A stretch of DNA of 64,000 nucleotides from Lachnospiraceae bacterium (GCA_014804755.1 JAAUZE010000008.1:100109-164108); one strand, 5' to 3'. Numbered from the stretch's first letter, positions 8,793 to 47,258 are shown. Numbers and translations: made by a program. The notes: generated by a model from the sequence alone, not told the origin.

Positions 8793-9635
8793 TTGGACAG
8801 ACTGTTACTCATTGACGGAAGCAACCTGTTGTTTCAAATGTTTTTTGGCATGCCGGCAAGAATCGTAAACGGGCAGGGAAAAGCGATTCAGGGGACGCTC
8901 GGCTTTGTGGGCGCCATGTTAAAAATCATCCGCATGGTGGAACCCACGCATATGGCGGTCCTATTTGACGGAGAGCATGAAAATCCCCGATGTGAGCTGG
9001 ATTCCGCTTACAAAGCGAACCGGCCGGATTATAGCACGGTATGTGAGGAAGAAAACCCGTTTTCCCAGCTGCCGGATGTATATAAAGCGTTGGATTTCCT
9101 TGGAATCAGGTACATAGAAACGATGGATTGTGAGGCGGACGATCTGATCGCCGGTTATGCGCTGTCATTCGGTCGGAATGAGGAGGTCGTGATCGCATCG
9201 TTTGACAGTGATTTTTTTCAGCTTATCACGGACAAGGTATCCGTGCTTCGTTATCGCGGTGAAAAAACAATGATCTGCACGCCGGAATATGTCAAGGAGA
9301 AATTTGATATTGCGCCGGAGCAATATGCGGATTGGAAATCGCTTGTGGGCGATACGGCGGACAACATTAAAGGTGCGGAAAAGGTTGGCGCAAAGACGGC
9401 GGCTTCGCTGCTTCATGAGTTTGGCACGCTGGAACAGGTTCTTTTTTATGCGGAAAAGATCGCAAAACCGTCCGTGAGACAATCCATCCTCCGGAATGCA
9501 GACAGGCTTCGGGTCAACTATCAAATGATCAAGCTTGCGGGCGGGGCGGCGCTGCCGTTCAGCGGGCAGGAATTGAAGTACCGCTATGACGGAAGGACGA
9601 CCAATGAGGTGTTGACGGGGATCGGATTGCGGTGA
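8793..9635 (+). CDS. 5'-3' exonuclease (FEN/Pol I N-terminal domain family)
   Basis: LLLIDGSNLLF and the acidic clusters (FDGEH, EADDLIA, SFDSDFFQL) indicate a PIN-like domain. GDTADNIKGAEKVGAKTAASLL is an H3TH (helix-3-turn-helix) motif. The start codon is TTG. Confidence 0.8.
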   Translation: MDRLLLIDGSNLLFQMFFGMPARIVNGQGKAIQGTLGFVGAMLKIIRMVEPTHMAVLFDGEHENPRCELDSAYKANRPDYSTVCEEENPFSQLPDVYKALDFLGIRYIETMDCEADDLIAGYALSFGRNEEVVIASFDSDFFQLITDKVSVLRYRGEKTMICTPEYVKEKFDIAPEQYADWKSLVGDTADNIKGAEKVGAKTAASLLHEFGTLEQVLFYAEKIAKPSVRQSILRNADRLRVNYQMIKLAGGAALPFSGQELKYRYDGRTTNEVLTGIGLR

Positions 9636-9654
9636 TGAGGAAAGCGGGCTTTGC

Positions 9655-18705: not shown

Positions 18706-19383
18706 ATGCATGTTCCTAAAGACGCTATTTTAATGCTATCTGGAGTATCATGTGTTGGAAAAACAACTGCAGCGTATGAGATAGTGAAGAATTATCCTGA
18801 ATTTAGAAGAGTAAGTGAATATGATTTGCTGAGAACAGTTGTGCGAACCGCATATGAATGTTTGGCTGAAGAAGCTTATATAGACAAGGATGAATTAATA
18901 AGTAAATATCATGCGTTGTTTGAGTCTATTACAAATAGCAATTTTGAAATTACCAAGTTACAGTCAGAACAATTACTTCCCTACGTTAAGGAGATAATTC
19001 TCAGACAACAAAGGCGACGGATACCAACTATAATAGAAGGTACTGGTATTATACCAAGCGCATATTTTCCTAATAATCAGCCATTAGCATGGTTATCAAA
19101 ACACGTAGTATTTATTAATCTATATATCTCTGACGAGGAAGATCACATTTCCCGAAGACAATCGCGTTCGGAGGAACGTGATTATCATGAATCGGCCAGT
19201 AAAACAGAAATAATTATTTCCCAATCTAGAGCAGGAAAAAATCAGTTATTACATATGCAGGCAATTAAGTTGCAGCAAAAATTTAAAAATGTGTTTAGCT
19301 TGGATGTTTCAAATTATACTCCAAGTCATATGGCAAGCAAAATAATGGAACTTGTTTTTGATTATTTTGATACCTATAACTAA
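18706..19383 (+). CDS. P-loop NTPase/kinase-like protein; function unknown
   Basis: Walker A is LSGVSCVGKTTAAYE. The ATG at 18706 lies 5 nt after the GGAGG that ends IRL. The listed TTG start at 18655 lies inside the repeat. Confidence 0.6.
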   Translation: MHVPKDAILMLSGVSCVGKTTAAYEIVKNYPEFRRVSEYDLLRTVVRTAYECLAEEAYIDKDELISKYHALFESITNSNFEITKLQSEQLLPYVKEIILRQQRRRIPTIIEGTGIIPSAYFPNNQPLAWLSKHVVFINLYISDEEDHISRRQSRSEERDYHESASKTEIIISQSRAGKNQLLHMQAIKLQQKFKNVFSLDVSNYTPSHMASKIMELVFDYFDTYN

Positions 19384-19392
19384 CAATATGAC

Positions 19393-20580
19393 TTATATAT
19401 CGTACAATTCGTTGTAGAGCTTTTCGGTCAAGGGAACCGCTTGTTCCCATACGTTTAAAAATGTATCATAAAGATGTTTTCCACGGCTTTGTATATCATT
19501 TTCGGAAATTTCTATTATTTCAAATGAAGAATTAGTAATTTGGAGAGGGTATCCTTCGCTGTCACATATTATTGGACTATAAAGCACGGCGTTATCACTT
19601 ATGATTATAGATTCTTTGCGTGGGCATTTGTATAGCCTAATCATTTCGCTTATAGGCAAGTGAAATCTATTTTGCATCCTAACAGCCGCTTCCAAACAGG
19701 TTTGTAAATCTGCTAAGAATCTCCTCTCTTTGTCTTTGCTTACAGCTTTGGTCATAGCTTCGCTTTTTGGATGTGGAAATAGACATTTAAAATCCACCCC
19801 ATTATTTATTCCTTCAATGGCTAGATACTTAAAAAAATCATCATTTTCACCTGTAAATATTTTTTTATTCCTTCTGCCATAAAACCATAAACGTTTGCCT
19901 TGATAATCAATTACATTTCGAATAAGTATTTTCGTAAGAACGCTGGTTGAAAATCCTTTATGAAAAAGAATATGCTCCTTGGTTATTTCAGGACTAACTA
20001 TTGTGAAATTTCCATGGTTGTCCTTCATAATTTGCTCAACCAAATCTCTGCAAGTGTCGGGAATCATTTGTTCACGTTGCAAGATCATTTTAACTTCTTT
20101 TATATATGCATTCCAGTGACTATTGAAGTTTTTGATATCTGTATTAGAATCTTTTGCCAATTCTTGTAAAAAACGTTTGAATTCCTCTCGTGATTTCTTA
20201 AAATTATCATTTTCATTATTTAAACGTATAGGGACATAACGATTTAGAGGTTTATCTACCCATGATGACCAATCGGGAATATGTTCAAATAATATTGGTA
20301 TAACTATACTTCCTCCTGGCTCTGCAAAATGTGCACCATACACTACACCTGCTTCATACATTAACCAAGGATTCTTAAAATTATCTGATGTTATACAAAC
20401 GATACATTTATCACTTCTCAAAAGATTATTATGTATTTCATTATCAACGGATGTCCCTTTATACATATCGGGAGAAAAAAACACTTCAATTTTATTTTCT
20501 AATGTATTCAAGATGAATTTTTTTGTTTCTAATGCTAATAATTTACTTTTATCTTTTGACCAGCTAATAAATATTTCCAC
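19393..20580 (-). CDS. TIR-domain protein with an uncharacterised C-terminal domain of about 250 aa
   Basis: The N-terminus IFISWSKDKSKLLALETKKFIL...VFFSPDMYKGTSVDNEIHNNL...CIVCITSDNFKNPWLMYEAG matches the bacterial TIR pattern (FISWS...S.DI..G......L.....I.......S.W...EAG), including the conserved Glu. The GTG start lies 6 nt after the GGAGG that ends IRR. Confidence 0.7.
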   Translation of the reverse strand: MEIFISWSKDKSKLLALETKKFILNTLENKIEVFFSPDMYKGTSVDNEIHNNLLRSDKCIVCITSDNFKNPWLMYEAGVVYGAHFAEPGGSIVIPILFEHIPDWSSWVDKPLNRYVPIRLNNENDNFKKSREEFKRFLQELAKDSNTDIKNFNSHWNAYIKEVKMILQREQMIPDTCRDLVEQIMKDNHGNFTIVSPEITKEHILFHKGFSTSVLTKILIRNVIDYQGKRLWFYGRRNKKIFTGENDDFFKYLAIEGINNGVDFKCLFPHPKSEAMTKAVSKDKERRFLADLQTCLEAAVRMQNRFHLPISEMIRLYKCPRKESIIISDNAVLYSPIICDSEGYPLQITNSSFEIIEISENDIQSRGKHLYDTFLNVWEQAVPLTEKLYNELYDI

Positions 20581-20586
20581 TTTGTT

Positions 20587-20653
20587 CCTCCGATAAATTG
20601 GTGTTTTTCACAATATACAAATCATTATTCAATAGATAATTTCTTATTATCCT
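20587..20653. repeat. Right 67-bp inverted repeat (IRR)
   Basis: Exact reverse complement of 18634-18700. Confidence 0.95.
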
Positions 20654-20771
20654 TTATCTTTAGAAACTACATCAACAGATACCGTTGAATACTTATTCGT
20701 CCAGCCCGTCAGACGACCTTTTATTACCCAATAACAAATGATCCAGTAGCATCCCATCTACCTAATTTTGT

Positions 20772-20800
20772 ATTGTACTACACGATTGTGCGTATTTCAA
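20772..20800 (-). promoter_or_regulatory. Putative sigma-70-type promoter firing leftward into IRR
   Basis: The minus strand reads TTGAAA, a 17-nt spacer, then TACAAT (plus strand ATTGTA at 20772-20777 and TTTCAA at 20795-20800). It lies about 120 nt outside IRR. Confidence 0.4.
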
Positions 20801-21025
20801 CATCTTTCTCAAATATTCAGTAAATACATACAAGCATTCTTAACTGCTGTCTTTTGCCATGAATATTAAGTTTGCTAATCTCGCCGCTTTACACTATCCA
20901 AGATTTATGAGAAAATGGTTCTGAATTAAGTCAAAACAGTTGAATAAAGTTGCGCAAAGCCCAACTTGCCAATATATACCCATTAACACAGTCTCCGTTG
21001 CTGGAGTATGCGAAAGGAGTCCATC

Positions 21026-21703: not shown

Positions 21704-22564
21704 ATGGCAGATGACGCACTTACCTGGTTGTTGGAGACAGGAAATCCGGCGGTAAAACATAGGACAAAAATAGAATTACTTGGGCTGGAGGATGACCCAG
21801 CTGAAGCATTCACATGGATTGTGTCAAAACTGCCTGACGATTGGTACAGAGTAAAAGGTTTGTGGTATGCATATTATATCAATGCTCTGGCAGAATGTGG
21901 TCTGAATCAATCCATGATGCCGTCCGAATGGTTCGAAACAGCAATGGACAGAATTCGGGCAGGCTTTGACTTTGGCTGCGAAGCATTCATGCTATTACAG
22001 GCAATGGTTGCCCTTGGATTTGGTGGAAATCCTGATGTGCAGAAAATATTTGCGCTGTTGCATGATAATCGCTTACCGGACGGAGGTTTTCTTTGCGAAA
22101 GACGAAAAGGCAGACTAAAGTATATTCCTAAAAGTTGTTATAAAGCAGATTATTATGCGTTAAGATTATGCTCATGTTGCCGCAAAAAGGGAATCATTCT
22201 CGATATAGAACAGGAGTTAATTCGTTATTTTCTGAGCAGAAATTTATTATTTAGACGGGATAATTTGGATAAATTAATACTTGGGGATAATGAGAAAGAA
22301 GGCTCGCGCAATTCAGATGTATTCTATCCGTTTGAACCGATGCGAATGGGAATTCAAAACATTATGGAAACGATTTCCTCACTTGGGTACGGAAATGATC
22401 CTGCAACTGCAGCCGGTTGGAATTGCTTGAATTCAGCAAAAGATGATATAGGGCGGGTAATTCTGGCCGGTACACTTACGAAGTCTTGGTTGCCAAAGGA
22501 AAAAGTAGGAAAACCAAGTGCGTGGGCAACGTTTTATGCGCTATTGGCTGAAAAAGAACGATAA
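21704..22564 (+). CDS. Hypothetical protein (helical-repeat; possibly prenyltransferase/terpene-cyclase-like fold)
   Basis: RBS GAGGAGAA before the ATG at 21704. Aromatic-rich helical repeats are present, but no catalytic motif was verified. Confidence 0.35.
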   Translation: MADDALTWLLETGNPAVKHRTKIELLGLEDDPAEAFTWIVSKLPDDWYRVKGLWYAYYINALAECGLNQSMMPSEWFETAMDRIRAGFDFGCEAFMLLQAMVALGFGGNPDVQKIFALLHDNRLPDGGFLCERRKGRLKYIPKSCYKADYYALRLCSCCRKKGIILDIEQELIRYFLSRNLLFRRDNLDKLILGDNEKEGSRNSDVFYPFEPMRMGIQNIMETISSLGYGNDPATAAGWNCLNSAKDDIGRVILAGTLTKSWLPKEKVGKPSAWATFYALLAEKER

Positions 22565-22687
22565 ATCTTGAATTGCTGGACGTGACACCACAATTATAAC
22601 CACGAAAATGATACTTCCTTTTTGGAAGCGTTTGCCTTCTGAAAATAGCTTATACTGATTCTCAATACATCCGAATTGAGGGGAGAA

Positions 22688-23362
22688 ATGATAAAGGCGA
22701 TATACTTTGATTTGTTTTTTACATTGATTGTTCCGGCATACGAAAAAATAAATAATGAATTTGATATATTAAATTTGTCTGTTGGCGAGTGGGAACAGTA
22801 CGCCGAAAATGATATTTTATATCGTGAAAGGGCTTTGGGTTTCGTTAAAAATGAAAGAGAGATAATAGATAATATCGTGTCTCTTATGCCGTTTGAGGTT
22901 AGTATTGTTCAAAAACAGCAAGTTTTGAATGCTCGTGAAAAGAGGATGCAAAATGCCCTAAAAATGGTATCAAAAGAAATATTAGACGTTTTACAAAAAT
23001 TAAAAGCAGAGAATATCAAATTAGGGCTGATAAGTAATGCAGACTGCATTGATTGTAAATATTGGAACCAATCACCGTTATCTCCGTATTTTGATGATGC
23101 CATCTTTTCGTGTGACGTCGGATTGCTAAAGCCTGATAGACAGATTTATGAGTTAGCAATGCAGCGTTTGCATGTATCTCCGGAGGACAGTCTGTTTGTT
23201 GGTGACGGAGGTTCAAATGAATTATGCGATGCAAAGGAGGCAGGTATGGGTACTGTTTTTTCAGAAATGCTTGAAACGAAAAACGATGAGCAGAAAAAAA
23301 CAATTATCAAATATGCAGATTATCATATTAAGCATATGAGCGAACTGTTTTATTTGCTGTAA
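22688..23362 (+). CDS. HAD-superfamily hydrolase
   Basis: IYFDLFFTL (motif I-like), LISNAD (motif II) and FVGDGGSNEL (motif IV). Confidence 0.6.
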   Translation: MIKAIYFDLFFTLIVPAYEKINNEFDILNLSVGEWEQYAENDILYRERALGFVKNEREIIDNIVSLMPFEVSIVQKQQVLNAREKRMQNALKMVSKEILDVLQKLKAENIKLGLISNADCIDCKYWNQSPLSPYFDDAIFSCDVGLLKPDRQIYELAMQRLHVSPEDSLFVGDGGSNELCDAKEAGMGTVFSEMLETKNDEQKKTIIKYADYHIKHMSELFYLL

Positions 23363-23452
23363 AGAAAAACTTCCGCTTTATCCAACAGCCAATCAAAAGC
23401 GCTTTCTATGTATCCATGAGTCAGAATATAAATTTAGTAGGAGGATTTCTGC

Positions 23453-23929
23453 ATGCCAATACAAATATCAGCCCAAGAGACAATCAATGCACTAAATGCA
23501 ATTTTTGAGAAACATAAAATGGAGCGTATTTGTGTTTTGGGAACAACATGTTGTGGTAAGACAACCTTGTTAAAACAAATTCCTGGTTGTGTAGATTTGG
23601 ATGATGAATTATGGCCGCAATTAACCAAAGAAGAAGCAGATTTTATCAGCCAAAAACCATGGACAAATGAAATTGGTGACTTTATAGATAAACTGGTTTA
23701 TGAAAAAATATCAGTAAAAGTTGGTCATCCGTTGTTCACTACAATCATTGTAGATTGCGATGTAGTAATATATTTGGATATCAGCGATGAGTTATTGGCT
23801 GAACATTGTAAGAAGCGGGGAAATGATTTTAAAGATTCCATAAATGTAAAGAAATCTATAGAAGGAGATTGGAATAATCACAGAAAAAGTGGTGGAAAAA
23901 CTTTTTATTATTTAACCGTCAATGAGTAA
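23453..23929 (+). CDS. Small P-loop NTPase/kinase-like protein
   Basis: Walker A is VLGTTCCGKTTLL. The RBS is GGAGGA. Confidence 0.55.
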   Translation: MPIQISAQETINALNAIFEKHKMERICVLGTTCCGKTTLLKQIPGCVDLDDELWPQLTKEEADFISQKPWTNEIGDFIDKLVYEKISVKVGHPLFTTIIVDCDVVIYLDISDELLAEHCKKRGNDFKDSINVKKSIEGDWNNHRKSGGKTFYYLTVNE

Positions 23930-24007
23930 TAATCATGAAAAGAGAACTATAAAAAATAGCATCGCAGGGATACAACAGCATACCACCCGATGAGGAGCCA
24001 AAACCAT

Positions 24008-37799: not shown

Positions 37800-38018
37800 A
37801 TGTTCGGAAAAAAGAAGCTTCAAGTGGAATACTATGACAAAGAAAATGTAAAGCCGGTCATCCGCGCCAGCATCTGCACGGGAGAGCAGGTTGCCGGATT
37901 TAAGAATATTCATACCGGAAAGTTTGAGGAGATCATGCTGATCCGGGACGAGCGGGATAAAGAAGTATTTTTGAGCAGGTACGGCATTTCGGCGGGGGAA
38001 ATCACAAAGGAATATTAA
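37800..38018 (+). CDS. Conserved small hypothetical protein
   Basis: AGGAGG RBS; 72 aa; contains the CTGEQVAGFK segment. Function unknown. Confidence 0.45.
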   Translation: MFGKKKLQVEYYDKENVKPVIRASICTGEQVAGFKNIHTGKFEEIMLIRDERDKEVFLSRYGISAGEITKEY

Positions 38019-38043
38019 TTGCTGCAGAGAAAGAGAGATAAAT

Positions 38044-38787
38044 ATGCAGATAGATTTTTATTATTGGGGCGGCATGTGTCCTATTTCAGACGAAATCATT
38101 CAAATGCTGTCACGTTGGGATAACAAATTTGATATTCGGTTGCATGACATAACAAATGATTTTGATCTGGCAAAAAATAAAAGCATGTTCTTTCCGTTCC
38201 TCACGATTGTGAATCATAAAGAAAGATATTATGGCCCTGTTTCAGAAGCATTCTTACAAACGTTAAGTACGGGAATGCTGCCAAAAGAAACTCCATATAG
38301 AATTACGATGGGAACAGTCGAAAAAAGCGAGGTCATTCAGCCGATACATAAGGATAATTATTTTCTTGCGTCACAGTGTACCGGTAGAAGGAATTGTTCA
38401 GGATGTAGTTCAAAGGTTAAAATGTATCAGGATTTTCCGGATGGAATAATCGGGTTTATGAATATGGATAACGAAACATTGTTGGGGGGCGCGGAGTACG
38501 TTCCATCTTTGTACGTCCCATATGATATTCCTAAGGGACAGGAAATTGCATTTATTACCTGTGTTTATTTGTCAGATGAGACTTTTGATTATAAATCAGC
38601 ACCATTGAGGGCATTAGAACAATATCTGTCAAAGCGGTACAAAAAAGCGATTGTTATTTCAGATGAAGAAGGTACTTTTCCGAATGGGGATTTACAATTT
38701 TTCGAGAAAAACGGATATCATGATGAGAAAGTGATTTTTGAGGATCGTTATTGCAGACTGCATCTCTTAGTGAAAGATTTAATTTAA
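38044..38787 (+). CDS. Hypothetical protein (thioredoxin-like N-terminal region; tentative)
   Basis: This is a long ORF with coding-like composition. The N-terminal YYWGGMCPIS...FFPFLTIVN suggests a Trx-like fold, but this is not verified. Confidence 0.35.
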   Translation: MQIDFYYWGGMCPISDEIIQMLSRWDNKFDIRLHDITNDFDLAKNKSMFFPFLTIVNHKERYYGPVSEAFLQTLSTGMLPKETPYRITMGTVEKSEVIQPIHKDNYFLASQCTGRRNCSGCSSKVKMYQDFPDGIIGFMNMDNETLLGGAEYVPSLYVPYDIPKGQEIAFITCVYLSDETFDYKSAPLRALEQYLSKRYKKAIVISDEEGTFPNGDLQFFEKNGYHDEKVIFEDRYCRLHLLVKDLI

Positions 38788-38802
38788 TAAATAAAAATTT
38801 GA

Positions 38803-38831
38803 TTGACATAGTTGAACTCCATTTATATAAT
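38803..38831 (+). promoter_or_regulatory. Consensus sigma-70/SigA promoter
   Basis: TTGACA (38803-38808), a 17-nt spacer, then TATAAT (38826-38831). Both hexamers are perfect. Confidence 0.7.
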
Positions 38832-38837
38832 ACTAGT

Positions 38838-38956
38838 ATAGATGAGCAATCATCAGGTGAGTCCTACCGATAAGTGGAATCGATAAGAGAGTATTTCCGT
38901 TGCGACGGATACTACCGAAAGGCTATGCTTTGGCGTAGCCTTTTCTATTATTTTTT
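38838..38956 (+). ncRNA. Orphan small RNA candidate (about 115 nt) between a consensus promoter and an intrinsic terminator
   Basis: No ORF with an RBS. Internal hairpins are GATGA-GCAA-TCATC (GNRA loop) and GTAT..CCGT-TGCG-ACGG-ATAC (UNCG-type loop). The terminator is GGCTATG-CTTTGG-CGTAGCC followed by TTTTCTATTATTTTTT. Confidence 0.5.
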
Positions 38957-39072
38957 AACACAAACATGACACACAGATGTCATGTTTTGCGTTCTATGAT
39001 AAATAAAAGCGGAGACAGAAGCGATAAAAGCGATGTGCCGCGGGCGAGGGTGCGGCATACAGGAGGACCGCC

Positions 39073-41591: not shown

Positions 41592-41712
41592 TGAAAGGAT
41601 TGACATACGGGAGAGCAATTATAGTCTTATTCTTTTTACGGAATTGTGCACCCGTTTATAATTGGTTATAATTGCAATAACAATAAGAATTATACGGAAA
41701 AGGAGACTGAAA

Positions 41713-42135
41713 ATGCAGATCGTACCTACGCTAAGTTTTGGAGGAAATTGTCGGGAAGCCATTCATATGTATGAAAAGGCATTTAATGGGAAGATTAGTT
41801 GTCTGATTACATATGGAGAAGCGAATGATCCCGAATATAATCCGTTGCTTAAAGAAAATCAAAAAGAGTATATATACCATTCGGAACTTGTATTGGGCAA
41901 TCAAAGAATCATTATGAGCGACCATGTGGATATTGAATTTCAAACGTGCTATTCAAATTTCCTCACTGTTATGTATGATACAAAAGAAGAAGTGCAAAGA
42001 GCATATGAAATCATGAAAGAAGGAAGTAAGACAATATATCAACTGGAAGCGACTCCATATAGTTCTTGTCGAGTTGTTTTTGTTGATAAGTTTGGAATTC
42101 GTTGGGGAATTATGACCGAGCAAACAGCGGAATAA
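41713..42135 (+). CDS. VOC/glyoxalase-superfamily protein (PhnB-like)
   Basis: MQIVPTLSFGGNCREAIHMYEKAFNG...DKFGIRWGI. Confidence 0.6.
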   Translation: MQIVPTLSFGGNCREAIHMYEKAFNGKISCLITYGEANDPEYNPLLKENQKEYIYHSELVLGNQRIIMSDHVDIEFQTCYSNFLTVMYDTKEEVQRAYEIMKEGSKTIYQLEATPYSSCRVVFVDKFGIRWGIMTEQTAE

Positions 42136-42159: not shown

Positions 42160-42873
42160 ATGTGCGGACGCTACTATATGGAGGATGATACTGCAAAAGA
42201 GATCGAGAAAGTCATTCGCTGGGTGGATGAAAAACTGCGCGCACAGCGGACTGTGCAGGAAGCAACGCGGAAACAGGAGGCAGGAATTACGCAGGAGAAG
42301 AACCCTTGGAATGAAGGAAAAGGGAACGTTGCGGCAGGAATCGGGAAGGCGGGAGACATTTACCCTGCGGCACTTGCACCCGTGCTCGGCGCCGGGATGG
42401 AAACCGCCGGATACAGAACCTTAGATTGCCGCATGCTGCGCTGGGGACTGCCGGGATATACGCTGAAGGGAAACGGCAAAAAAGGACAGGTTATTTTTAA
42501 TGCACGGAGCGAAACTGCGATGGAGAAACCGACCTTTCGGGAGGGGATAAAAAACCATCGCATTGTGATCCCGGCGGCGGGCTTTTATGAGTGGAACCAC
42601 AAAAAAGAAAAATATCGTTTTCGCAGAACCGATTCGCCCGTACTTTTTATGGCGGGATGTTTTCGGCGTTATGAGGACGGCGATCGGTTTGTCATCCTGA
42701 CAACGGCGGCGAATGCATCTATGGAACCGGTGCATGACCGCATGCCGCTTATTTTGGAACCGGACGAGATCGCGGATTGGATATGGGACGGGGAGCGGAC
42801 GAAAAATCTGTTGGAAAAACAACCCTGCCTTTTAGAGCGCACGACGGACTATGAGCAGATGACGCTCTTTTAA
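42160..42873 (+). CDS. SOS response-associated peptidase (SRAP/YedK family), abasic-site processing protein
   Basis: It begins MCGRY, giving the catalytic Cys2. Also present: FNARSETAMEKPTFR, PAAGFYEW and HDRMPLIL. Confidence 0.85.
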   Translation: MCGRYYMEDDTAKEIEKVIRWVDEKLRAQRTVQEATRKQEAGITQEKNPWNEGKGNVAAGIGKAGDIYPAALAPVLGAGMETAGYRTLDCRMLRWGLPGYTLKGNGKKGQVIFNARSETAMEKPTFREGIKNHRIVIPAAGFYEWNHKKEKYRFRRTDSPVLFMAGCFRRYEDGDRFVILTTAANASMEPVHDRMPLILEPDEIADWIWDGERTKNLLEKQPCLLERTTDYEQMTLF

Positions 42874-42892
42874 GCGCATGGAAAAAAATACC
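42823..42892 (+). repeat. Left direct repeat (covers the last 51 nt of the SRAP gene plus 19 nt downstream)
   Basis: About 64 of 70 positions match 45547-45616 by hand alignment. Confidence 0.85.
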
Positions 42893-43257
42893 CACAACGT
42901 GCATTTTAGATATATTCCTGAATTGTAAAGTTAACTTCCATATGAAACGGTAAATTCTACATGCACTTTGAAAACGCCATAAATTTTAAAGTTTTTAGTT
43001 ACGATAACTTCCGAAATGTGGTATACTCATCTCAAATTTATGCTAAAAATCGTGTTTAGAAGCATGGCAAACAGGCCTCTGGAAGATGGGTGTGTCAGAC
43101 TAACTTCTACAGGCCGTTAGAGATATGTTTGATTTCTGACCAGCGGCGGTTTTGCATAAGTTTATAAAGCTACTTAAGCAGCTTCGGGGACAGCTTTACT
43201 TCATCGGGTGCGATGTACCGGAGCTGCAGCTTTTGTAGCGTCTCCAGATCTGAGAGG

Positions 43258-43503
43258 ATGGTTCCTTTAAAAATAGTTAGTGCATTATTAATTGTTTCAC
43301 CAATTATTGTACCCATTTCTCCAATTAACAACATTGATATTATATTATCTATTCCGCTAGCATTTTTGGGATTGGCAATTATTGTTGCATGCTCTGTTAA
43401 TGATTATGAGAGCAAAGAACCTTTAGAGTTGAAAGATAAAATTGACCATAATAAATGTACAATAGGTTCTTGTAATCAACTAATTAATTATTTATCAAAA
43501 TAA
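43258..43503 (+). CDS. Small two-TM membrane protein
   Basis: RBS GAGAGG before the ATG at 43258. It has two hydrophobic helices (IVSALLIVSPIIVPI and LSIPLAFLGLAIIVA). Confidence 0.4.
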   Translation: MVPLKIVSALLIVSPIIVPISPINNIDIILSIPLAFLGLAIIVACSVNDYESKEPLELKDKIDHNKCTIGSCNQLINYLSK

Positions 43504-43736
43504 GCATTTAAGTCAAACACATAGTCGTAAGTAACAGGTAGTAAAATTTGAAATACTTAAAGCATAATATAGTGTTACAAAAGAAATAAGACATCAACTA
43601 ATGTGTTTTTATTGTACGACTACCCTTTCATATTATGCAAAAATATGTTCTGTATAGTATTGACACGCAATATGTAGTATAATGTCAATATTGGTATTTT
43701 ATTATAAAACCATTGACAATTGCGAGGAAAATATTA

Positions 43737-44480
43737 ATGAAATCGATAGGAACTTCAATGCATGAAGATTTATCACTATTTATAGATGAATCTGGCAGCA
43801 TAACTAAAACTAATATATCTTTTAATAGGTACTTTATTATTGCCATTCTATTTACACGGAAATATAGTAGATTGCAAAGATATTTTCAAAAGGGAATTGC
43901 GTCTTTATTGCAAAACCCCAAATATAAAATAATGCTGGAAGAAAATGGAGAAATAAAGGGAAGTAAGTTATCGGAAACAAAAAAGAAACCTATTTACGAT
44001 CGTATTATAAGAAATTGCTCAGAAGATTTTGAATTGGGAATAATTGTTTTAGATAATACATATACTACAGATGAGTTTATAAAAAATCATGCTAGAACAT
44101 TCAATTATATATTGCAACTCTACTTAGATAATATGTTTAGACATTGTAGTAAGTATTCTAAAAATACAAGAGATATGAGAATATTGATAGATGAACAAAA
44201 TATTTCTACAGATGCTAAGTATACATTGGATGATTATCTAGAACAGCATTTTACTGTTATGAATCCATTATGTCGCACGGTAGATGTTAAATATACAGAT
44301 TCTAAAAACCACCCTATGATTCAATTAATTGACTTTATATCTAACACTTTTTATCGAAACCTTGAAAAACATGATAAAACAAGTATAGAAACTGTAAAAA
44401 TGTTACTTCCCTATGTTTGTGGCGGAAAAATATTTGATTTTTCAACTAATCATGACACAAGATTAATGTTGGATGAATAA
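43737..44480 (+). CDS. DUF3800-family protein
   Basis: The N-terminal LFIDESGS motif and the C-terminal LIDFISN-type motif are characteristic of DUF3800. The start could be 43713, 43737 or 43758. Confidence 0.6.
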   Translation: MKSIGTSMHEDLSLFIDESGSITKTNISFNRYFIIAILFTRKYSRLQRYFQKGIASLLQNPKYKIMLEENGEIKGSKLSETKKKPIYDRIIRNCSEDFELGIIVLDNTYTTDEFIKNHARTFNYILQLYLDNMFRHCSKYSKNTRDMRILIDEQNISTDAKYTLDDYLEQHFTVMNPLCRTVDVKYTDSKNHPMIQLIDFISNTFYRNLEKHDKTSIETVKMLLPYVCGGKIFDFSTNHDTRLMLDE

Positions 44481-44659
44481 TATAGAATGTACTTGACAAC
44501 ATTATTATGGTATGTTATATTTACTTCACCAAGTAATTTCCCTTATACGGTGCATGAGGATGTAAGGCGGCTGTAATGTCGTCCACCATAGGGTTTTGGT
44601 AGAAAGACATTCCAGATATGGGATGTTTTTTCGCTTTATAAGTAAATATTTTCATATAT

Positions 44660-44692
44660 AAAAGAGACGGGATTGATCACCTCGTCTCTTTT
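44660..44692. terminator. Bidirectional-looking intrinsic terminator
   Basis: AAAAGAGACG, a 13-nt loop, then CGTCTCTTTT. The A and T tracts are built into the stem ends. Confidence 0.6.
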
Positions 44693-44970
44693 ATTACAAT
44701 GCCCTTTTATTAATTTTAGAAAGGATGTGATCTGATCAATCTAATACTACCACATAGTCCTACAATTAGATTGTGTCAATCACCAAAGCTGTTAACCAAG
44801 CTTTTACAGACTCAGGAGAAACTTAAGAAGAATGTTGTGAAAAAGCAAGAAATGTTGACGTGTGTTTGCTGTTCTTATTTATGTTGAACTGCAGGCCTTT
44901 TTCGGGTATAATTCATTCATGGCAGGAAAATAGGTTTCCGATTGGTTCGATCATGAGAGGGGGATTTCCC

Positions 44971-45213
44971 ATGAGCACTTTAGATGCAACAGTTTCCATG
45001 CTGGAAGCAATGCCGGAGGAGGCAAGAATCAAGGTTTTGGAATTTACGAAGCAGTTGTTCAACTCCAGAAAGCCGGCCAATCCGTTTGTCCCGGTCAGTC
45101 AGAGGCAGGTTCATTCCGACCTTACGGAATCACGTCAGCAGATTGCTGCCGGACAGGGATTGAATATGGAAGACGCTTTAGACAGAATGGGAAAACAGCA
45201 TGAATTCATTTGA
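44971..45213 (+). CDS. Type II antitoxin (partner of the RelE/ParE toxin)
   Basis: 80 aa with RBS GAGAGGGGG. It overlaps the toxin start by 14 nt. Confidence 0.55.
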   Translation: MSTLDATVSMLEAMPEEARIKVLEFTKQLFNSRKPANPFVPVSQRQVHSDLTESRQQIAAGQGLNMEDALDRMGKQHEFI

Positions 45214-45523
45214 TGTAATTATTTCACCAAAAGCATTGTCTCAACTGAACAGTTATGTTGATTATCTGCAATATACGCTGCTGAATGATCAGGCAGCTCG
45301 TAATGTGTGGCAGGATGCCATGGAAACACGGGATCAGCTTTCAAAAGCTGTCGAGGGTCTGAAACCCTGTTCTTATCCTCTGCTAAAAAAGAACGAATAC
45401 TGTGTCATCCATTTCATGCGGCACCGCTATCTGATGCTTTATCGGATAGAGGGATCGACCATTTATGTGGATGCGATATATCATCAGCTTCAGGACTATG
45501 AAAATATTTTTGCAGATGAATGA
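45200..45523 (+). CDS. RelE/ParE-family type II toxin
   Basis: 107 aa. The pattern ISPKALSQL...YLMLYRIEGSTIYVDAIYHQLQDY is typical of ParE/RelE-fold toxins. Confidence 0.7.
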   Translation: MNSFDVIISPKALSQLNSYVDYLQYTLLNDQAARNVWQDAMETRDQLSKAVEGLKPCSYPLLKKNEYCVIHFMRHRYLMLYRIEGSTIYVDAIYHQLQDYENIFADE

Positions 45524-45546
45524 GGCCGGTCAAAGCACAAAGGCGG

Positions 45547-45616
45547 CCCTGTCTTTTAGAGCGTACGACGGACTATGAGCAGATGACGCTCGTTTAAACA
45601 TATGGAAAAAAATACC
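45547..45616 (+). repeat. Right direct repeat (relic copy of the SRAP gene 3' end)
   Basis: It still reads in frame as PCLLERTTDYEQMTLV*, compared with PCLLERTTDYEQMTLF* in the intact gene. Confidence 0.85.
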
Positions 45617-45618
45617 GG

Positions 45619-45647
45619 TTGAAAGCAGAACGTATGTTTGCTATAAT
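45619..45647 (+). promoter_or_regulatory. Promoter with an embedded LexA (Cheo/DinR-type) box upstream of the Y-family polymerase
   Basis: TTGAAA (45619-45624), a 17-nt spacer, then TATAAT (45642-45647). The spacer contains AGAACGTATGTTTG (45627-45640), compared with the Firmicutes SOS-box consensus CGAACnnnnGTTCG. Confidence 0.6.
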
Positions 45648-45661
45648 GTGTCACACAGGAG

Positions 45662-46936
45662 GTGAACACACGTTTGAAATCAGTGATATTTCATATTGAT
45701 GTGAATGCAGCCTTCCTTAGTTGGGAGGCTGTTTATCGTCTGTATCATAAAGGAGGGACAGTGGATCTTCGCGAGATCCCTTCAGCGGTAGCGGGAGATG
45801 CAAGTCTGCGCCACGGCATTATTCTTGCCAAGTCCATACCGGCGAAGCGATATGGCATACAGACGGGCGAGAGCATACCGGAGGCAAAAAGAAAGTGTCC
45901 GGGGCTCACGCTTGCCGCGCCGAACTATAACCTGTATGAGCGCTGCTCTGCGGCGGTGATGGAGATCCTGCGGGAATACTCGGACACCGTGGAGCAGTAC
46001 AGCATTGACGAGGCATTTGTGGATATGACGCAGACCTGCCATTTGTTCGGGGAGCCGGAGCAGACTGCGGAAATGATAAAGGATCGGATTCATCGTGAAT
46101 TGGGATTTACGGTGAATGTGGGGGTGTCGGAAAACAAGCTGCTCGCTAAGATGGCGTCTGATTTTCGGAAGCCGGATAAGGTGCATACACTGTGGAAGTC
46201 GGAAATACAGAGGAAAATGTGGCCGCTCTCCGTATCGGAGCTGTTTTTTGTGGGAAGGGCGACCGCGAAAAAACTATTTTCTGTCGGGATCAGGACGATC
46301 GGGGAGCTTGCGCAGGCGGATCCGGCATATATCAAGAGCATACTCAAAAAGCAGGGAGAGATCGTGTGGGCATTTGCGAACGGGCTGGATTCTTCCCCGG
46401 TGATGAAGCAGGCTCCGGCCAACAAAGGATACGGGAACAGCACAACCACTCCTTTTGACGTGACGGATGCGCCGACAGCCAAAAAAGTGTTGTTGGCGCT
46501 GTCGGAAACGGTGGCGGCAAGGCTTCGCGCAGATGGCGTGCAGATCGGTGTGGCTGCCGTGGGGATCAAAGGAACGGATTTCTCCTACTGCTCGCACCAG
46601 CGTGTACTGCCGGTTTCCACCAATATTACGCTGGAGATTTATCAGGCGGCGTGCGGGCTGTTTGACGAGCTTTGGGGCGGGAGTCCGATCCGGCATCTGG
46701 GCGTGCATACCTCCGGCGTATGCAGAGAGAACTTCACAAGACAGATGAGCCTGTTTGACGGGGCGGACTACGAAAAGCTGGCACGACTGGATACGGCGGT
46801 GGACGCTGTTCGGGAACGGTTCGGCGCGGATGCGTTGATGAGGGCAGCCTTTTTAAATCAACCGATTGACCATATGAGCGGAGGAATCTCAAGAGAAAAG
46901 AGAGAGGCGGATTACAGCGGAATGAAACCGGAATAG
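45662..46936 (+). CDS. Y-family DNA polymerase (DinB/UmuC-like translesion polymerase)
   Basis: IFHIDVNAAFLSWE, YSIDEAFVDMT, VNVGVSENKLLAKMASDFRKPD and FFVGRATAKKL. The start codon is ambiguous (GTG 45662 or TTG 45674). Confidence 0.85.
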   Translation: MNTRLKSVIFHIDVNAAFLSWEAVYRLYHKGGTVDLREIPSAVAGDASLRHGIILAKSIPAKRYGIQTGESIPEAKRKCPGLTLAAPNYNLYERCSAAVMEILREYSDTVEQYSIDEAFVDMTQTCHLFGEPEQTAEMIKDRIHRELGFTVNVGVSENKLLAKMASDFRKPDKVHTLWKSEIQRKMWPLSVSELFFVGRATAKKLFSVGIRTIGELAQADPAYIKSILKKQGEIVWAFANGLDSSPVMKQAPANKGYGNSTTTPFDVTDAPTAKKVLLALSETVAARLRADGVQIGVAAVGIKGTDFSYCSHQRVLPVSTNITLEIYQAACGLFDELWGGSPIRHLGVHTSGVCRENFTRQMSLFDGADYEKLARLDTAVDAVRERFGADALMRAAFLNQPIDHMSGGISREKREADYSGMKPE

Positions 46937-46946
46937 GAGGTGCGCG

Positions 46947-47258
46947 ATGGCATTCGGGGCAGGAAAAGAACATCAGGACGGGCATGCAGGGCAGATACGC
47001 GGGAGGCAGCAGGAGGTTGCCTGTGAGTGCTGGTTTACCAGTACCGGGAGGCTGATACCATTGATGCTGAAGTTAAAAGACGAGGACGGAATGTGCCGAA
47101 CCGTCAGACCGATCATGGTGCATTCCGCTGAGAAAAAAATGTATGCGGGCACGCCCTTTATCGAGTTTGACTGTGAGATTGTGGTGAGGGAACAAAGGAT
47201 ACGCGTATGGCTGATCTATTATCAGAGTGAGAACCGCTGGGTGTTGAACTTCCGGTGA
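46947..47258 (+). CDS. Hypothetical protein co-transcribed with the Y-family polymerase
   Basis: AGGAGG lies 6 nt before the ATG. 103 aa; no motif recognised. Confidence 0.4.
   Translation: MAFGAGKEHQDGHAGQIRGRQQEVACECWFTSTGRLIPLMLKLKDEDGMCRTVRPIMVHSAEKKMYAGTPFIEFDCEIVVREQRIRVWLIYYQSENRWVLNFR

What the first reader, a model, noticed from the sequence alone, without database searches (positions are those of the whole stretch)
42823..45616. A 2.7-kb AT-rich island inserted at the 3' end of the SRAP gene, flanked by 70-bp direct repeats, splits an SRAP and Y-family polymerase module
Seen in sequence:
- 42823-42892 and 45547-45616 align at about 64 of 70 positions.
- The right copy still encodes PCLLERTTDYEQMTLV*, almost the same C-terminal peptide as the intact gene (…MTLF*).
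- The right copy is followed immediately by the promoter of the polymerase gene.
- The sequence between the repeats is visibly AT-rich. It carries a small membrane protein, a DUF3800 protein and a RelE/ParE toxin-antitoxin pair, but no integrase.

Established knowledge: integrative elements that target the 3' end of a gene duplicate that end as attL/attR and restore the reading frame.

Inference: this is a decayed or satellite-like integrated island. Its integrase is lost or supplied in trans, and the toxin-antitoxin pair may be stabilising it.
Basis: partly seen in the sequence, partly recalled or inferred. Interest (0 to 1): 0.55.

Follow-up and report, generated by a model that had tools for sequence, protein, structure and literature searches.

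The report
Two nested insertions, not one island
The DNA between a DNA-repair gene and its partner polymerase gene is not one integrase-type island. It is an old toxin-antitoxin insertion flanked by a 104-base duplication, later interrupted in this strain by a patchwork of foreign AT-rich DNA; this is ordinary genome plasticity.

Summary
The 70-nt repeats are real (64/70; chance about 1e-19). Relatives have an empty site, so DNA was inserted between the SRAP gene and the Y-family polymerase promoter. It is not one AT-rich island bounded by attL/attR. Comparison with more than 25 related Lachnospiraceae loci shows at least two nested events.

1. An old insertion of a 0.65-kb ParE-type toxin-antitoxin cassette. 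It is flanked by a 104-nt duplication running from the last 56 nt of SRAP into the polymerase promoter. At least six lineages share it (dS 0.11-0.41) and carry no AT-rich DNA. The two copies have decayed in complementary ways.

2. A strain-specific 1.97-kb insertion (42893-44857) that interrupts the left copy. It is a mosaic of:
- a 330-nt 3' remnant of an IS30-family element;
- orphan AT-rich DNA;
- a portable DUF3800 gene (RNase H2-like fold) with a DUF3800-I-like small RNA. Its nearest relatives lie in 25-30% GC, defence-island-like DNA.

No integrase occurs in any relative. The SRAP-polymerase spacer is a recurrent insertion site: seven other lineages carry unrelated cargo there, one of them another ParE-like pair flanked by a 27-nt duplication. 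How the 104-nt duplication arose is unresolved. Interest is low to moderate.

The parts
42160..42873 (+). SRAP (SOS-response-associated peptidase) gene, intact
   Evidence: Pfam PF02586, 135.5 bits. Orthologues in L004-L009 and others.
42815..42892 (+). Left copy of duplicated block D, first part: last 56 nt of SRAP, the stop codon, and the spacer up to ...AAATACC
   Evidence: It continues uninterrupted in the TA-only relatives L005, L096 and L105.
42893..42916 (.). 24 nt of unclear origin at the left junction. The first 10 nt (CACAACGTGC) may still be D sequence (compare L105: CACAAC[AT]GTGC).
   Evidence: Boundary uncertain by about 12 nt.
42917..43246 (-). 3' terminal remnant of an IS30-family insertion sequence: the terminus CCTGAATTGTAAA at 42917, the 3' untranslated part, and codons for the last ~26 residues of the transposase (43170-43247)
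   Evidence: 79% nt identity over 333 nt to the 3' end of the IS in L139-L143. Peptide 85% identical to P0245. P0245 is ~40% identical to annotated IS30-family transposases. The L139 transposase carries HTH_38.
43213..43503 (+). It spans the junction of the IS remnant and the AT-rich DNA and is probably not a conserved gene.
   Evidence: Only a self hit. No Pfam, NCBIfam or PADLOC family.
43247..43736 (.). AT-rich DNA (22-33% GC) of unknown origin upstream of DUF3800
   Evidence: No similarity to any fetched locus, phage or plasmid. GC values.
43737..44480 (+). DUF3800 gene (247 aa from ATG 43737), RNase H2-like fold with DE and QxxD motifs
44493..44521 (+). Promoter-like site of the small RNA (TTGACA-17-TATATT, with TG)
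   Evidence: 11/12. Conserved in L084, L090, L091, L121, L123 and L131.
44527..44635 (+). DUF3800-I-like structured small RNA with an intrinsic terminator
   Evidence: Rfam RF02969 full-length match, 26.3 bits, below the gathering score of 44.2. 90-92% conserved where the ORF is 85%. RNAalifold: 37 pairs, 5 with compensatory changes. Single-sequence z-score -2.4.
44656..44692 (.). Hairpin (two-way terminator-like) that ends the portable DUF3800 + RNA module
   Evidence: Homology to other DUF3800 loci stops at 44696-44731.
44697..44857 (.). Right tail of the strain-specific insert, unknown origin, no IS end
44858..44872 (+). Left copy of D, second part (ACGTGTGTTTGCT...): a degenerate copy of the polymerase LexA-like box
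   Evidence: Homology to TA-only loci resumes at 44858. Alignment A1.
44884..44912 (+). Toxin-antitoxin promoter-like site (TTGAAC-17-TATAAT)
   Evidence: Same layout in the TA copy at an unrelated site (L114).
44971..45213 (+). Antitoxin gene (80 aa, no recognised family); overlaps the toxin gene by 14 nt
   Evidence: Conserved as a pair in L004, L005, L094, L096-L120. dN/dS 0.03-0.17.
45200..45523 (+). ParE/RelE-family toxin gene (107 aa)
   Evidence: Pfam PF05016, 30.9 bits against a cut-off of 23. More than 300 protein clusters found, the 120 listed at >=71% identity. dN/dS 0.11-0.42.
45539..45642 (+). Right copy of D (104 nt): pseudo 3' end of SRAP (45547-45597), spacer, polymerase -35 (45619-45624) and LexA-like box AGAACGTATGTTTG (45627-45640)
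45662..47258 (+). Y-family DNA polymerase gene (45662-46936) and conserved 103-aa partner ORF (46947-47258)
   Evidence: Pfam IMS and IMS_C. NCBIfam DNA polymerase IV models. SRAP-polymerase-orf103 order conserved in about 40 loci.

Best explanation
The 2.7 kb between the SRAP gene and the polymerase promoter is a composite of nested insertions at a site that repeatedly accepts foreign DNA.

Step 1 (shown by comparison). In the common ancestor of this strain and at least five sister lineages, a minimal 0.65-kb ParE-type toxin-antitoxin cassette (own promoter, antitoxin, toxin; no mobility gene) entered the short spacer between SRAP and the SOS-type polymerase promoter. A 104-nt stretch of the target was duplicated, so a complete SRAP 3' end lies to the left and a complete promoter lies to the right.

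Afterwards each copy kept only the half that is needed. The SRAP half of the left copy is conserved and the promoter half of the right copy is conserved. The redundant halves drift or are deleted.

Step 2 (shown). Only in this strain, 1.97 kb of foreign DNA landed inside the redundant promoter half of the left copy. It consists of:
- a truncated IS30-family element;
- orphan AT-rich DNA;
- a portable two-part module, a DUF3800 RNase H2-like gene followed by its own promoter-driven DUF3800-I-like small RNA. This module came from a low-GC organism, where it sits among defence genes.

Inferred:
- The 104-nt duplication arose from a one-off, recombinase-independent insertion, for example a staggered break that was filled in, or template switching. 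It is not an integrase att site.
- The IS30-family element, or illegitimate recombination at it, delivered the AT-rich DNA.
- The toxin-antitoxin pair disfavours loss of the region by recombination between the repeats.
- The insertions are tolerated because neither SRAP nor the polymerase promoter is damaged.
For: Empty site:
- L006 has the same synteny with 67 nt between SRAP and the polymerase gene. L007-L009 and about 20 further loci are also empty.

TA-only intermediate with the same junctions:
- L004, L005, L094 and L096-L113.
- Their repeats are 96-104 nt and uninterrupted.
- Alignment A1 shows the left copy running through the LexA-like box exactly where the window is interrupted.

Phylogeny and age:
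- The window nests among the TA-only lineages (4.7-6.8% nt distance in polymerase + orf103). The empty L006 is 7.5-8.2% from all of them.
- TA genes have dS 0.11-0.41 and dN/dS 0.03-0.42.

Complementary decay of the two copies:
- Promoter half: right copies 95% identical to each other, left copies 67%.
- The right-copy stop codon is lost in L096 and L105.
- The right copy is partly deleted at different end points in L004 and L005.

IS remnant.

DUF3800 + RNA module:
- Homology of 84-86% is limited to 43751-44696/44731, in contigs of 25-30% GC with differing neighbours (ToxN, GmrSD/Mrr_N, HARE-HTH).

Recurrent insertion site:
- L030, L032, L035, L040, L046, L050 and L061 carry unrelated cargo in the same spacer.
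- L040 carries a ParE-like toxin (PF15781) flanked by a 27-nt duplication of its native spacer.

The same TA cassette occurs at an unrelated site without repeats (L114-L120).
Against: - No demonstrated mechanism accounts for a 104-nt target duplication. A long-lost integrase cannot be excluded for step 1.
- L006 could be a precise deletion between repeats rather than the ancestral state. The distance margin is small, and my bootstrap values were unusable.
- The junctions of the AT-rich insert are uncertain by about 12 nt. It shows no target duplication and only one IS end, so whether it arrived in one piece or in several steps is unknown.
- All sequences are metagenome assemblies. The right junction (44857/44858) is seen only in the window and L001, which may derive from the same reads. 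L002 confirms the left junction.
- Nothing here tests toxin activity or stabilisation.
Confidence: 0.7

Rival explanations
1. One integrative island (42893-45546) entered the 3' end of SRAP by site-specific recombination. The 70-nt repeats are attL/attR, and the integrase has been lost or acts in trans.
For: - Repeats at 64/70 restore the SRAP reading frame.
- An empty site exists.
- Part of the insert has foreign base composition.
Against: - More than 20 related contigs carry the repeats around the toxin-antitoxin pair alone.
- The AT-rich part splits the left repeat instead of lying beside it.
- The DUF3800 module and the TA cassette each occur elsewhere independently and with different neighbours.
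- There is no integrase at this site in any relative.
- The repeats are diverged and partly deleted in relatives.
Confidence: 0.04
2. Two events as in the best explanation, but step 1 was a genuine integrase-mediated integration. A larger element targeted the SRAP 3' end with a ~104-nt att site, and everything except the toxin-antitoxin pair was later deleted.
For: - A long repeat that covers the 3' end of a gene and restores it is typical of tyrosine-recombinase islands (established knowledge).
- Toxin-antitoxin pairs are common survivors of decayed elements.
- The repeats exchange sequence by gene conversion (L097 left copy shares ACGGCGGA with the right copies), so they can recombine.
Against: - Every lineage that carries the insert has the same two tight junctions around a 0.65-kb cassette, so any deletion must predate all of them.
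- No recombinase remnant lies between the repeats.
- An independent TA insertion in L040 has a different duplication (27 nt) a few bases away, which would need a second unrelated integrase.
- The same TA cassette at another site has no repeats.
Confidence: 0.2
3. The AT-rich DUF3800 segment is ancestral to the whole insert and was lost from all TA-only relatives.
For: Deletions do occur in this region: the right copy in L004 and L005, and the left copy in L106.
Against: - It needs several independent losses that each restore an uninterrupted left repeat copy.
- The window is nested among TA-only lineages.
- 27% GC in a 47% GC genome shows no amelioration, yet the TA genes have dS up to 0.4.
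Confidence: 0.03
4. The AT-rich segment is an assembly chimera that joins a low-GC organism's DNA into a Lachnospiraceae contig.
For: - All data are metagenome assemblies.
- L003 is a separate 1.2-kb contig holding only the AT-rich part.
- L002 ends 53 nt into the insert.
Against: - Two assemblies (the window or an NCBI MAG contig of 446 kb, and the ENA contig L001 of 444 kb) span both junctions identically.
- A Logan assembly crosses the left junction.
- The IS remnant at the left junction is about 40% GC, unlike the 27% GC of the segment's low-GC part.
- No repeat at the junctions would cause a misjoin.
Confidence: 0.03

Closest known systems
Chromosomal type II ParE/RelE toxin-antitoxin cassettes that occur as small stand-alone inserts
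   Same: - Two small overlapping genes with the antitoxin first and their own promoter.
- The toxin matches Pfam ParE_toxin.
- The family is abundant and found at unrelated chromosomal sites without mobility genes.
   Different: - Here the cassette is bracketed by a 104-nt duplication of its target.
- The antitoxin matches no described family.
- Activity is untested.
Integrase-type genomic islands that target the 3' end of a gene (attL/attR)
   Same: Direct repeats that include the 3' end of a gene and keep it intact; an empty site in relatives.
   Different: - No integrase anywhere.
- The simplest form of the insert is only 0.65 kb.
- The repeats have decayed.
- The AT-rich DNA is not bounded by the repeats.
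IS30-family insertion sequences
   Same: The 330-nt 3' end has a terminus and transposase C-terminus homologous to an IS whose transposase carries HTH_38.
   Different: It is a one-ended remnant: about 1.25 kb, including the catalytic domain and the other inverted repeat, is missing. No intact copy occurs in the window.
DUF3800 genes with DUF3800-I RNA motif (Weinberg et al. 2017, PMC5737381; Rfam RF02969)
   Same: - A structured RNA next to a DUF3800 gene, with a multistem core, conserved UAAG and CUGUAA loops, and a 3' intrinsic terminator.
- Covariation supports two stems.
   Different: - It scores 26.3 bits, below Rfam's gathering score of 44.2.
- The 5' hairpin of the model is replaced by a long-range ACCAA/UUGGU stem.
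- The function of the family is unknown.
Variable 'hotspot' spacers between conserved core genes that collect defence and addiction genes
   Same: The same spacer holds different cargo in different lineages: two kinds of ParE toxin, a YhcG/DUF1016 nuclease, a methyltransferase and transporters.
   Different: The site is a very short spacer (60-150 nt) inside an SOS-linked gene trio, and no recombinase is involved.

Membership tests
Integrase-type integrative island (attL/attR) | Encodes, or lies next to, a site-specific recombinase | tested here: not met
   No such ORF between the repeats. None at this site in L004-L009 or L096-L113.
Integrase-type integrative island (attL/attR) | Direct repeats bound the whole inserted unit, and the empty site has one copy | tested here: inconclusive
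   True for the toxin-antitoxin cassette. False for the AT-rich segment, which splits the left repeat.
Integrase-type integrative island (attL/attR) | The same element is found at the same att site in other genomes, or as an excised circle | not testable with these tools
   Only the TA-only form recurs. Circles would need reads or PCR.
Type II ParE/RelE toxin-antitoxin system | Toxin matches the family model above its curated cut-off | tested here: met
   PF05016, 30.9 bits against 23.
Type II ParE/RelE toxin-antitoxin system | Small antitoxin gene directly upstream, co-oriented and overlapping; the pair is conserved together | tested here: met
   14-nt overlap. The pair is conserved at two unrelated sites. 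Both genes are under purifying selection.
Type II ParE/RelE toxin-antitoxin system | Antitoxin belongs to a recognised antitoxin family | tested here: not met
   No Pfam, NCBIfam or PADLOC match.
Type II ParE/RelE toxin-antitoxin system | Toxin is toxic and the antitoxin neutralises it | not testable with these tools
   Needs expression experiments.
IS30-family insertion sequence | Complete transposase (HTH plus DDE domain) between two terminal inverted repeats | tested here: not met
   Only the last ~26 codons and one terminus remain. It is a remnant, not a functional member.
Rfam DUF3800-I RNA (RF02969) | Score at or above the gathering threshold | tested here: not met
   26.3 bits against 44.2, E = 0.42 on 3.1 kb. 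Homologues in seven other loci do not reach E <= 1.
Rfam DUF3800-I RNA (RF02969) | Lies next to a DUF3800 gene, has conserved secondary structure, and is followed by an intrinsic terminator | tested here: met
   Starts 47 nt after the DUF3800 stop codon. 37 predicted pairs, 5 with compensatory changes across 7 sequences. Terminator stem plus U-run.
DUF3800 (PF12686), RNase H-like | Pfam match above cut-off, N-terminal DE and C-terminal QxxD motifs, RNase H2-like fold | tested here: met
SOS-regulated SRAP + Y-family polymerase module | SRAP and IMS/IMS_C domains, conserved gene order, LexA-type box in the polymerase promoter | tested here: met
   - Domains.
- Gene order conserved in about 40 loci.
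- GAAC-N4-GTTT lies between -35 and -10 in nearly all loci.
- The box occurs twice in the window against 0.19 expected.
- LexA binding itself is not tested.

The most novel reading that the evidence does not exclude
The short spacer in front of the SOS-controlled polymerase promoter is a recombinase-independent capture site. Small addiction cassettes enter it by a break-and-fill-in or template-switch process linked to SOS or translesion activity, and this leaves long target duplications of variable length (104 nt here, 27 nt in L040). That would be a distinct route for toxin-antitoxin mobility.
Probability: 0.12. Interest if true: 0.6.

Novelty: new member of a known kind. Interest (0 to 1): 0.3.

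Why it matters
- **A caution for island calling.** Direct repeats that restore a gene's 3' end do not by themselves identify an integrase-type island. Here they are the scar of an older, much smaller insertion.
- **A time series of one site.** The locus shows an empty spacer, a toxin-antitoxin pair with a 104-nt duplication, and then a further mosaic insertion. It also shows how the duplicated halves decay in complementary ways once each function is needed only once.
- **Two leads with wider use.** One is a recurrent insertion site inside a conserved SOS gene trio in Lachnospiraceae. The other is a compact, portable DUF3800 + small-RNA module with its own promoter and terminators. That module would be a convenient form in which to test what the unexplained DUF3800 RNAs do.

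Tried and rejected
- **DNA searches.** Searching the AT-rich segment against phage and plasmid collections gave no match. A viral-contig scan with DUF3800 found no relative.
- **Rfam and tRNA.** Rfam at gathering thresholds and a tRNA scan found nothing in the window. So the insert has no tRNA target and no annotated RNA.
- **PADLOC.** It gave only a weak, partial CARF_HEPN match for DUF3800 (17 bits), which I disregard.
- **Orphan parts of the insert.** The 'membrane protein' ORF has no homologues. The left 860 nt and right 170 nt of the insert match none of the 140 fetched loci by blastn or tblastx. The exception is the IS remnant, found only through a 76-aa minus-strand peptide.
- **Second IS end.** I looked for one at the right boundary; scores were within shuffled controls. 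There is no intact transposase in the window.
- **Flanking repeats elsewhere.** The same TA cassette at its other genomic site (L114) has none, so long duplications are not a general property of the cassette.
- **Bootstrap.** Support values for the polymerase tree were unusable because of a rooting mismatch. I rely on the distance matrix only.
- **Literature.** A search for TA cassettes flanked by direct repeats gave nothing pertinent.


Full report
**1. The observation**

The repeat is real. The tool finds 42823-42892 and 45547-45616 as the only long direct repeat in 41.5-47.5 kb, at 64 of 70 positions. The mismatches are at positions 6, 18, 46, 52, 54 and 55, and the longest exact run is 27 nt. 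About 1e-19 such pairs are expected by chance in 6 kb.

In the SRAP frame the left copy ends ...PCLLERTTDYEQMTLF* and the right copy reads PCLLERTTDYEQMTLV*.

Pfam confirms these genes:

| Gene | Coordinates | Pfam result |
|---|---|---|
| SRAP | 42160-42873 | PF02586 |
| DUF3800 | 43713/43737-44480 | PF12686 |
| ParE-family toxin | 45200-45523 | 30.9 bits, cut-off 23 |
| Y-family polymerase | 45662-46936 | IMS, IMS_C |

An 80-aa gene overlaps the toxin gene by 14 nt and is the presumed antitoxin. A near-consensus promoter (45619-45647) follows the right copy.

The composition claim holds only in part. GC is 25-33% between about 43250 and 44860, but 42-48% (300-nt windows) over the toxin-antitoxin genes. 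The window as a whole is about 47%.

There is no tRNA and no Rfam family at curated thresholds.

**2. Relatives give an empty site and an intermediate**

A scan of one genome per species with the SRAP protein returned 80 loci, nearly all Lachnospiraceae. I located the window's proteins in them and read the junctions.

- **Empty site.** L006 has the same neighbours (YjbR, GyrI-like, SRAP, polymerase, orf103, EAL) and 95% polymerase identity. Its SRAP stop is followed after 67 nt by the polymerase start. It has one copy of the repeat sequence, running straight into TTGAAT-ACAGAACGTGTGTTTGT-TACAAT. L007-L009 and about 20 more distant loci are also empty.
- **Intermediate.** L004 and L005 have SRAP | antitoxin-ParE | polymerase and no DUF3800 or AT-rich DNA.
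- **More intermediates.** The toxin's close relatives (96% and 90% identity) gave 18 more contigs from two sample series (L096-L113). All are TA-only. One JGI metagenome contig (L094) is also TA-only.

**3. The true repeat is 104 nt and the AT-rich DNA interrupts it**

In L105 the pair is flanked by a 96-nt repeat (1649-1744 and 2422-2517, 82% identical). In L096 the repeat extends 8 nt further left.

BLAST of the window against these loci aligns the right copy at 45539-45642 with their left copies. It also shows that collinear homology to the TA-only loci resumes at 44858.

The duplicated block D therefore covers:
- the last 56 nt of SRAP;
- the stop codon and a spacer;
- the polymerase -35;
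- a GAAC-N4-GTTT box, up to GTTTGCT.

In the window the left copy is 42815-42892. Then come 1.97 kb of other DNA, then 44858-44872.

**4. Age and order of events**

Nucleotide distances in polymerase + orf103:

| Comparison | Distance |
|---|---|
| Window to TA-only lineages L005, L096/L099, L105, L004 | 4.7-6.8% |
| Empty L006 to every TA-bearing locus | 7.5-8.2% |

The simplest history is one TA gain after L006 split off, followed by one gain of AT-rich DNA in the window's lineage. My bootstrap values were unusable, and a precise loss in L006 cannot be excluded.

The TA genes have dS 0.11-0.41 and dN/dS 0.03-0.42 between lineages. So the insertion is old and the genes are maintained.

The two D copies have decayed in complementary ways:
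- The promoter half is 95% identical among right copies and 67% among left copies. In the left copies the GAAC half-site has become CAAC, AAAC or GAGC.
- The SRAP half is 91% identical among left copies.
- In right copies the SRAP half has lost its stop codon (L096, L105) or has been partly deleted at different end points (L004, L005).

This is what a redundant duplication does. It is not what functional att sites do.

**5. What the strain-specific 1.97 kb is**

It is a mosaic.

(a) *IS30-family remnant.* A full-library search with a 76-aa minus-strand peptide found P0245, which is 85% identical over the last 26 residues.
- P0245 is the frameshifted C-terminus of a transposase whose N-terminal part carries HTH_38.
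- It is about 40% identical to annotated IS30-family transposases.
- Window 42917-43246 is 79% identical at the DNA level to the 3' end of that IS, down to its terminus CCTGAATTGTAAA.
- The rest of the IS is missing. No second end lies at the right boundary.

(b) *Orphan DNA, 43247-43736.* This AT-rich stretch matches nothing.

(c) *DUF3800 + RNA module, 43751-44696.*
- Proteins 87-92% identical occur on contigs of 25-30% GC.
- DNA homology (84-86%) starts at the ORF and ends at a hairpin (44656-44692).
- Neighbouring genes differ from contig to contig and include ToxN, GmrSD/Mrr_N, HARE-HTH and HTH regulators.

(d) *160-nt tail* of unknown origin.

The insert shows no target duplication, and its ends are uncertain by about 12 nt. 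CACAACGTGC at 42893-42902 may still be D sequence.

The segment has no match in the phage, plasmid or viral collections.

**6. The DUF3800 module**

The 250 nt after the ORF are better conserved (90-92%) than the ORF itself. They contain:
- a TTGACA-17-TATATT promoter;
- a GC-rich core;
- a terminator.

Rfam's DUF3800-I model matches 44513-44638 end to end, but at 26.3 bits, below the curated 44.2. Homologues in other loci do no better.

An alignment of seven distinct sequences folds into 37 pairs, five of them with compensatory changes in the two core stems. The single-sequence z-score is -2.4.

Weinberg et al. described eleven RNA motifs tied to DUF3800 genes, function unknown (PMC5737381). 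DUF3800 has been modelled as an RNase H-like nuclease in type VII retrons and Cas12a2-linked systems (PMC7736814, PMC10910872).

I regard the RNA as a divergent DUF3800-I-like member by architecture and context. It does not pass Rfam's own threshold.

**7. The site is used repeatedly**

Seven other lineages carry unrelated DNA between SRAP and the polymerase promoter:

| Locus | Cargo |
|---|---|
| L030 | YhcG/DUF1016 nuclease |
| L035 | methyltransferase |
| L046 | 5.6 kb of transporter and regulator genes |
| L061 | racemase and NUDIX genes |
| L032, L050 | small ORFs |
| L040 | 1.65 kb with a ParE-like toxin of a different family (PF15781) and antitoxin-like genes |

The L040 insert is flanked by a 27-nt duplication (26/27) of sequence that is single-copy in its empty relatives, such as L077. 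The other five show no repeat of 20 nt or more.

The window's TA cassette also occurs at 77% nt identity at an unrelated site (L114-L120). There homology covers only the promoter and both genes (44906-45521), with no flanking repeat.

The GAAC-N4-GTTT box between -35 and -10 is conserved in nearly all loci. It occurs twice in the window against 0.19 expected. This fits SOS control but is not a binding test.

**8. Mechanism**

*Shown:*
- nested insertions;
- a duplication that preserves both flanking functions;
- complementary decay of the duplicated halves;
- a foreign, portable DUF3800 + RNA module;
- an IS remnant.

*Inferred:* the origin of the 104-nt duplication.
- I favour a one-off recombinase-independent event: a staggered break that is filled in, or template switching.
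- The reasons are that the cargo is minimal, that no recombinase is seen in any lineage, that a second independent TA insert nearby has a duplication of different length, and that the cassette elsewhere has none.
- I cannot exclude an ancient integrase element reduced to its addiction module (about 0.2).

The IS30-family fragment suggests how the AT-rich DNA arrived. The truncation inside the IS means at least one illegitimate join.

The repeats retain a 27-nt identical run, and there are signs of gene conversion: the L097 left copy shares ACGGCGGA with the right copies. Rare RecA-type deletion of the whole 2.7 kb is therefore conceivable, and the toxin-antitoxin pair could penalise it.

**9. 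Verdict**

This is a well-resolved example of ordinary genome plasticity at a small hotspot. It has two side leads: long target duplications around TA cassettes, and a compact DUF3800 + RNA module.

Caveat: all sequences are metagenome assemblies. The right junction of the AT-rich insert is seen only in the window and L001. The left junction is also seen in L002.

Noticed in passing
window 44493-44635: A promoter-driven, terminator-ended structured small RNA lies directly after the DUF3800 gene. It has DUF3800-I-like architecture (Rfam 26.3 bits, below threshold) and compensatory changes in two stems across seven loci.
   Followed up: yes
window 42917-43246 (minus strand): Truncated 3' end of an IS30-family insertion sequence, 79% identical to an IS in L139-L143. 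It is the only mobility-related sequence in the insert.
   Followed up: yes
L040 7927-9693: An independent 1.65-kb insertion in the same SRAP-polymerase spacer of another lineage. It carries a ParE-like toxin (PF15781) and antitoxin-like genes and is flanked by a 27-nt duplication (7969-7995 / 9619-9645). A 35-nt copy of internal SRAP sequence (7690-7724 / 9018-9052) lies inside the insert.
   Followed up: partly
L030, L032, L035, L046, L050, L061 (between SRAP and the polymerase gene): Other lineages hold unrelated cargo in the same spacer: a YhcG/DUF1016 nuclease, a methyltransferase, 5.6 kb of transporter/LysR genes, racemase + NUDIX genes, and small ORFs. None has flanking repeats of 20 nt or more.
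   Followed up: partly
window 41662-42135 and the GyrI-like to SRAP spacer in L004, L005, L006, L096: The spacer upstream of SRAP also varies. The window has a low-GC (35%) PhnB/3-dmu-9_3-mt-like gene there and L096/L098 have an esterase gene. In L005 the PhnB-like gene lies before the GyrI-like gene. L004 and L006 have other DNA of 0.9-1.8 kb.
   Followed up: no
L097 803-905 versus L096 5570-5672: Two otherwise near-identical strains (0.7% apart in the polymerase gene) differ in the left repeat copy. L097 carries ACGGCGGA, as in the right copies, which suggests gene conversion between the two repeat copies.
   Followed up: no
L084, L085, L131-L138: Close DUF3800 relatives often lie within a few kb of a ToxN (type III toxin) gene and GmrSD/Mrr_N restriction-type genes, in 25-30% GC DNA. 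L091 has two different DUF3800 genes 1.9 kb apart, and the second has a different downstream sequence.
   Followed up: partly
window 45520-45597: A 25-codon mini-ORF (MRPVKAQRRPCLLERTTDYEQMTLV) starts at an ATG that overlaps the ParE stop codon and runs through the pseudo SRAP 3' end. It is probably meaningless, but it is open in this strain.
   Followed up: no
window 46947-47258 and about 40 related loci: A 103-aa ORF with no Pfam, NCBIfam or PADLOC match always follows the Y-family polymerase gene (42-95% identity across Lachnospiraceae). It is a conserved uncharacterised partner of the SRAP-polymerase module.
   Followed up: no
window 19001-21000, 22001-24000, 38001-39000: Further low-GC patches (32-37% GC against about 47%) occur elsewhere in the window. 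I did not examine them.
   Followed up: no
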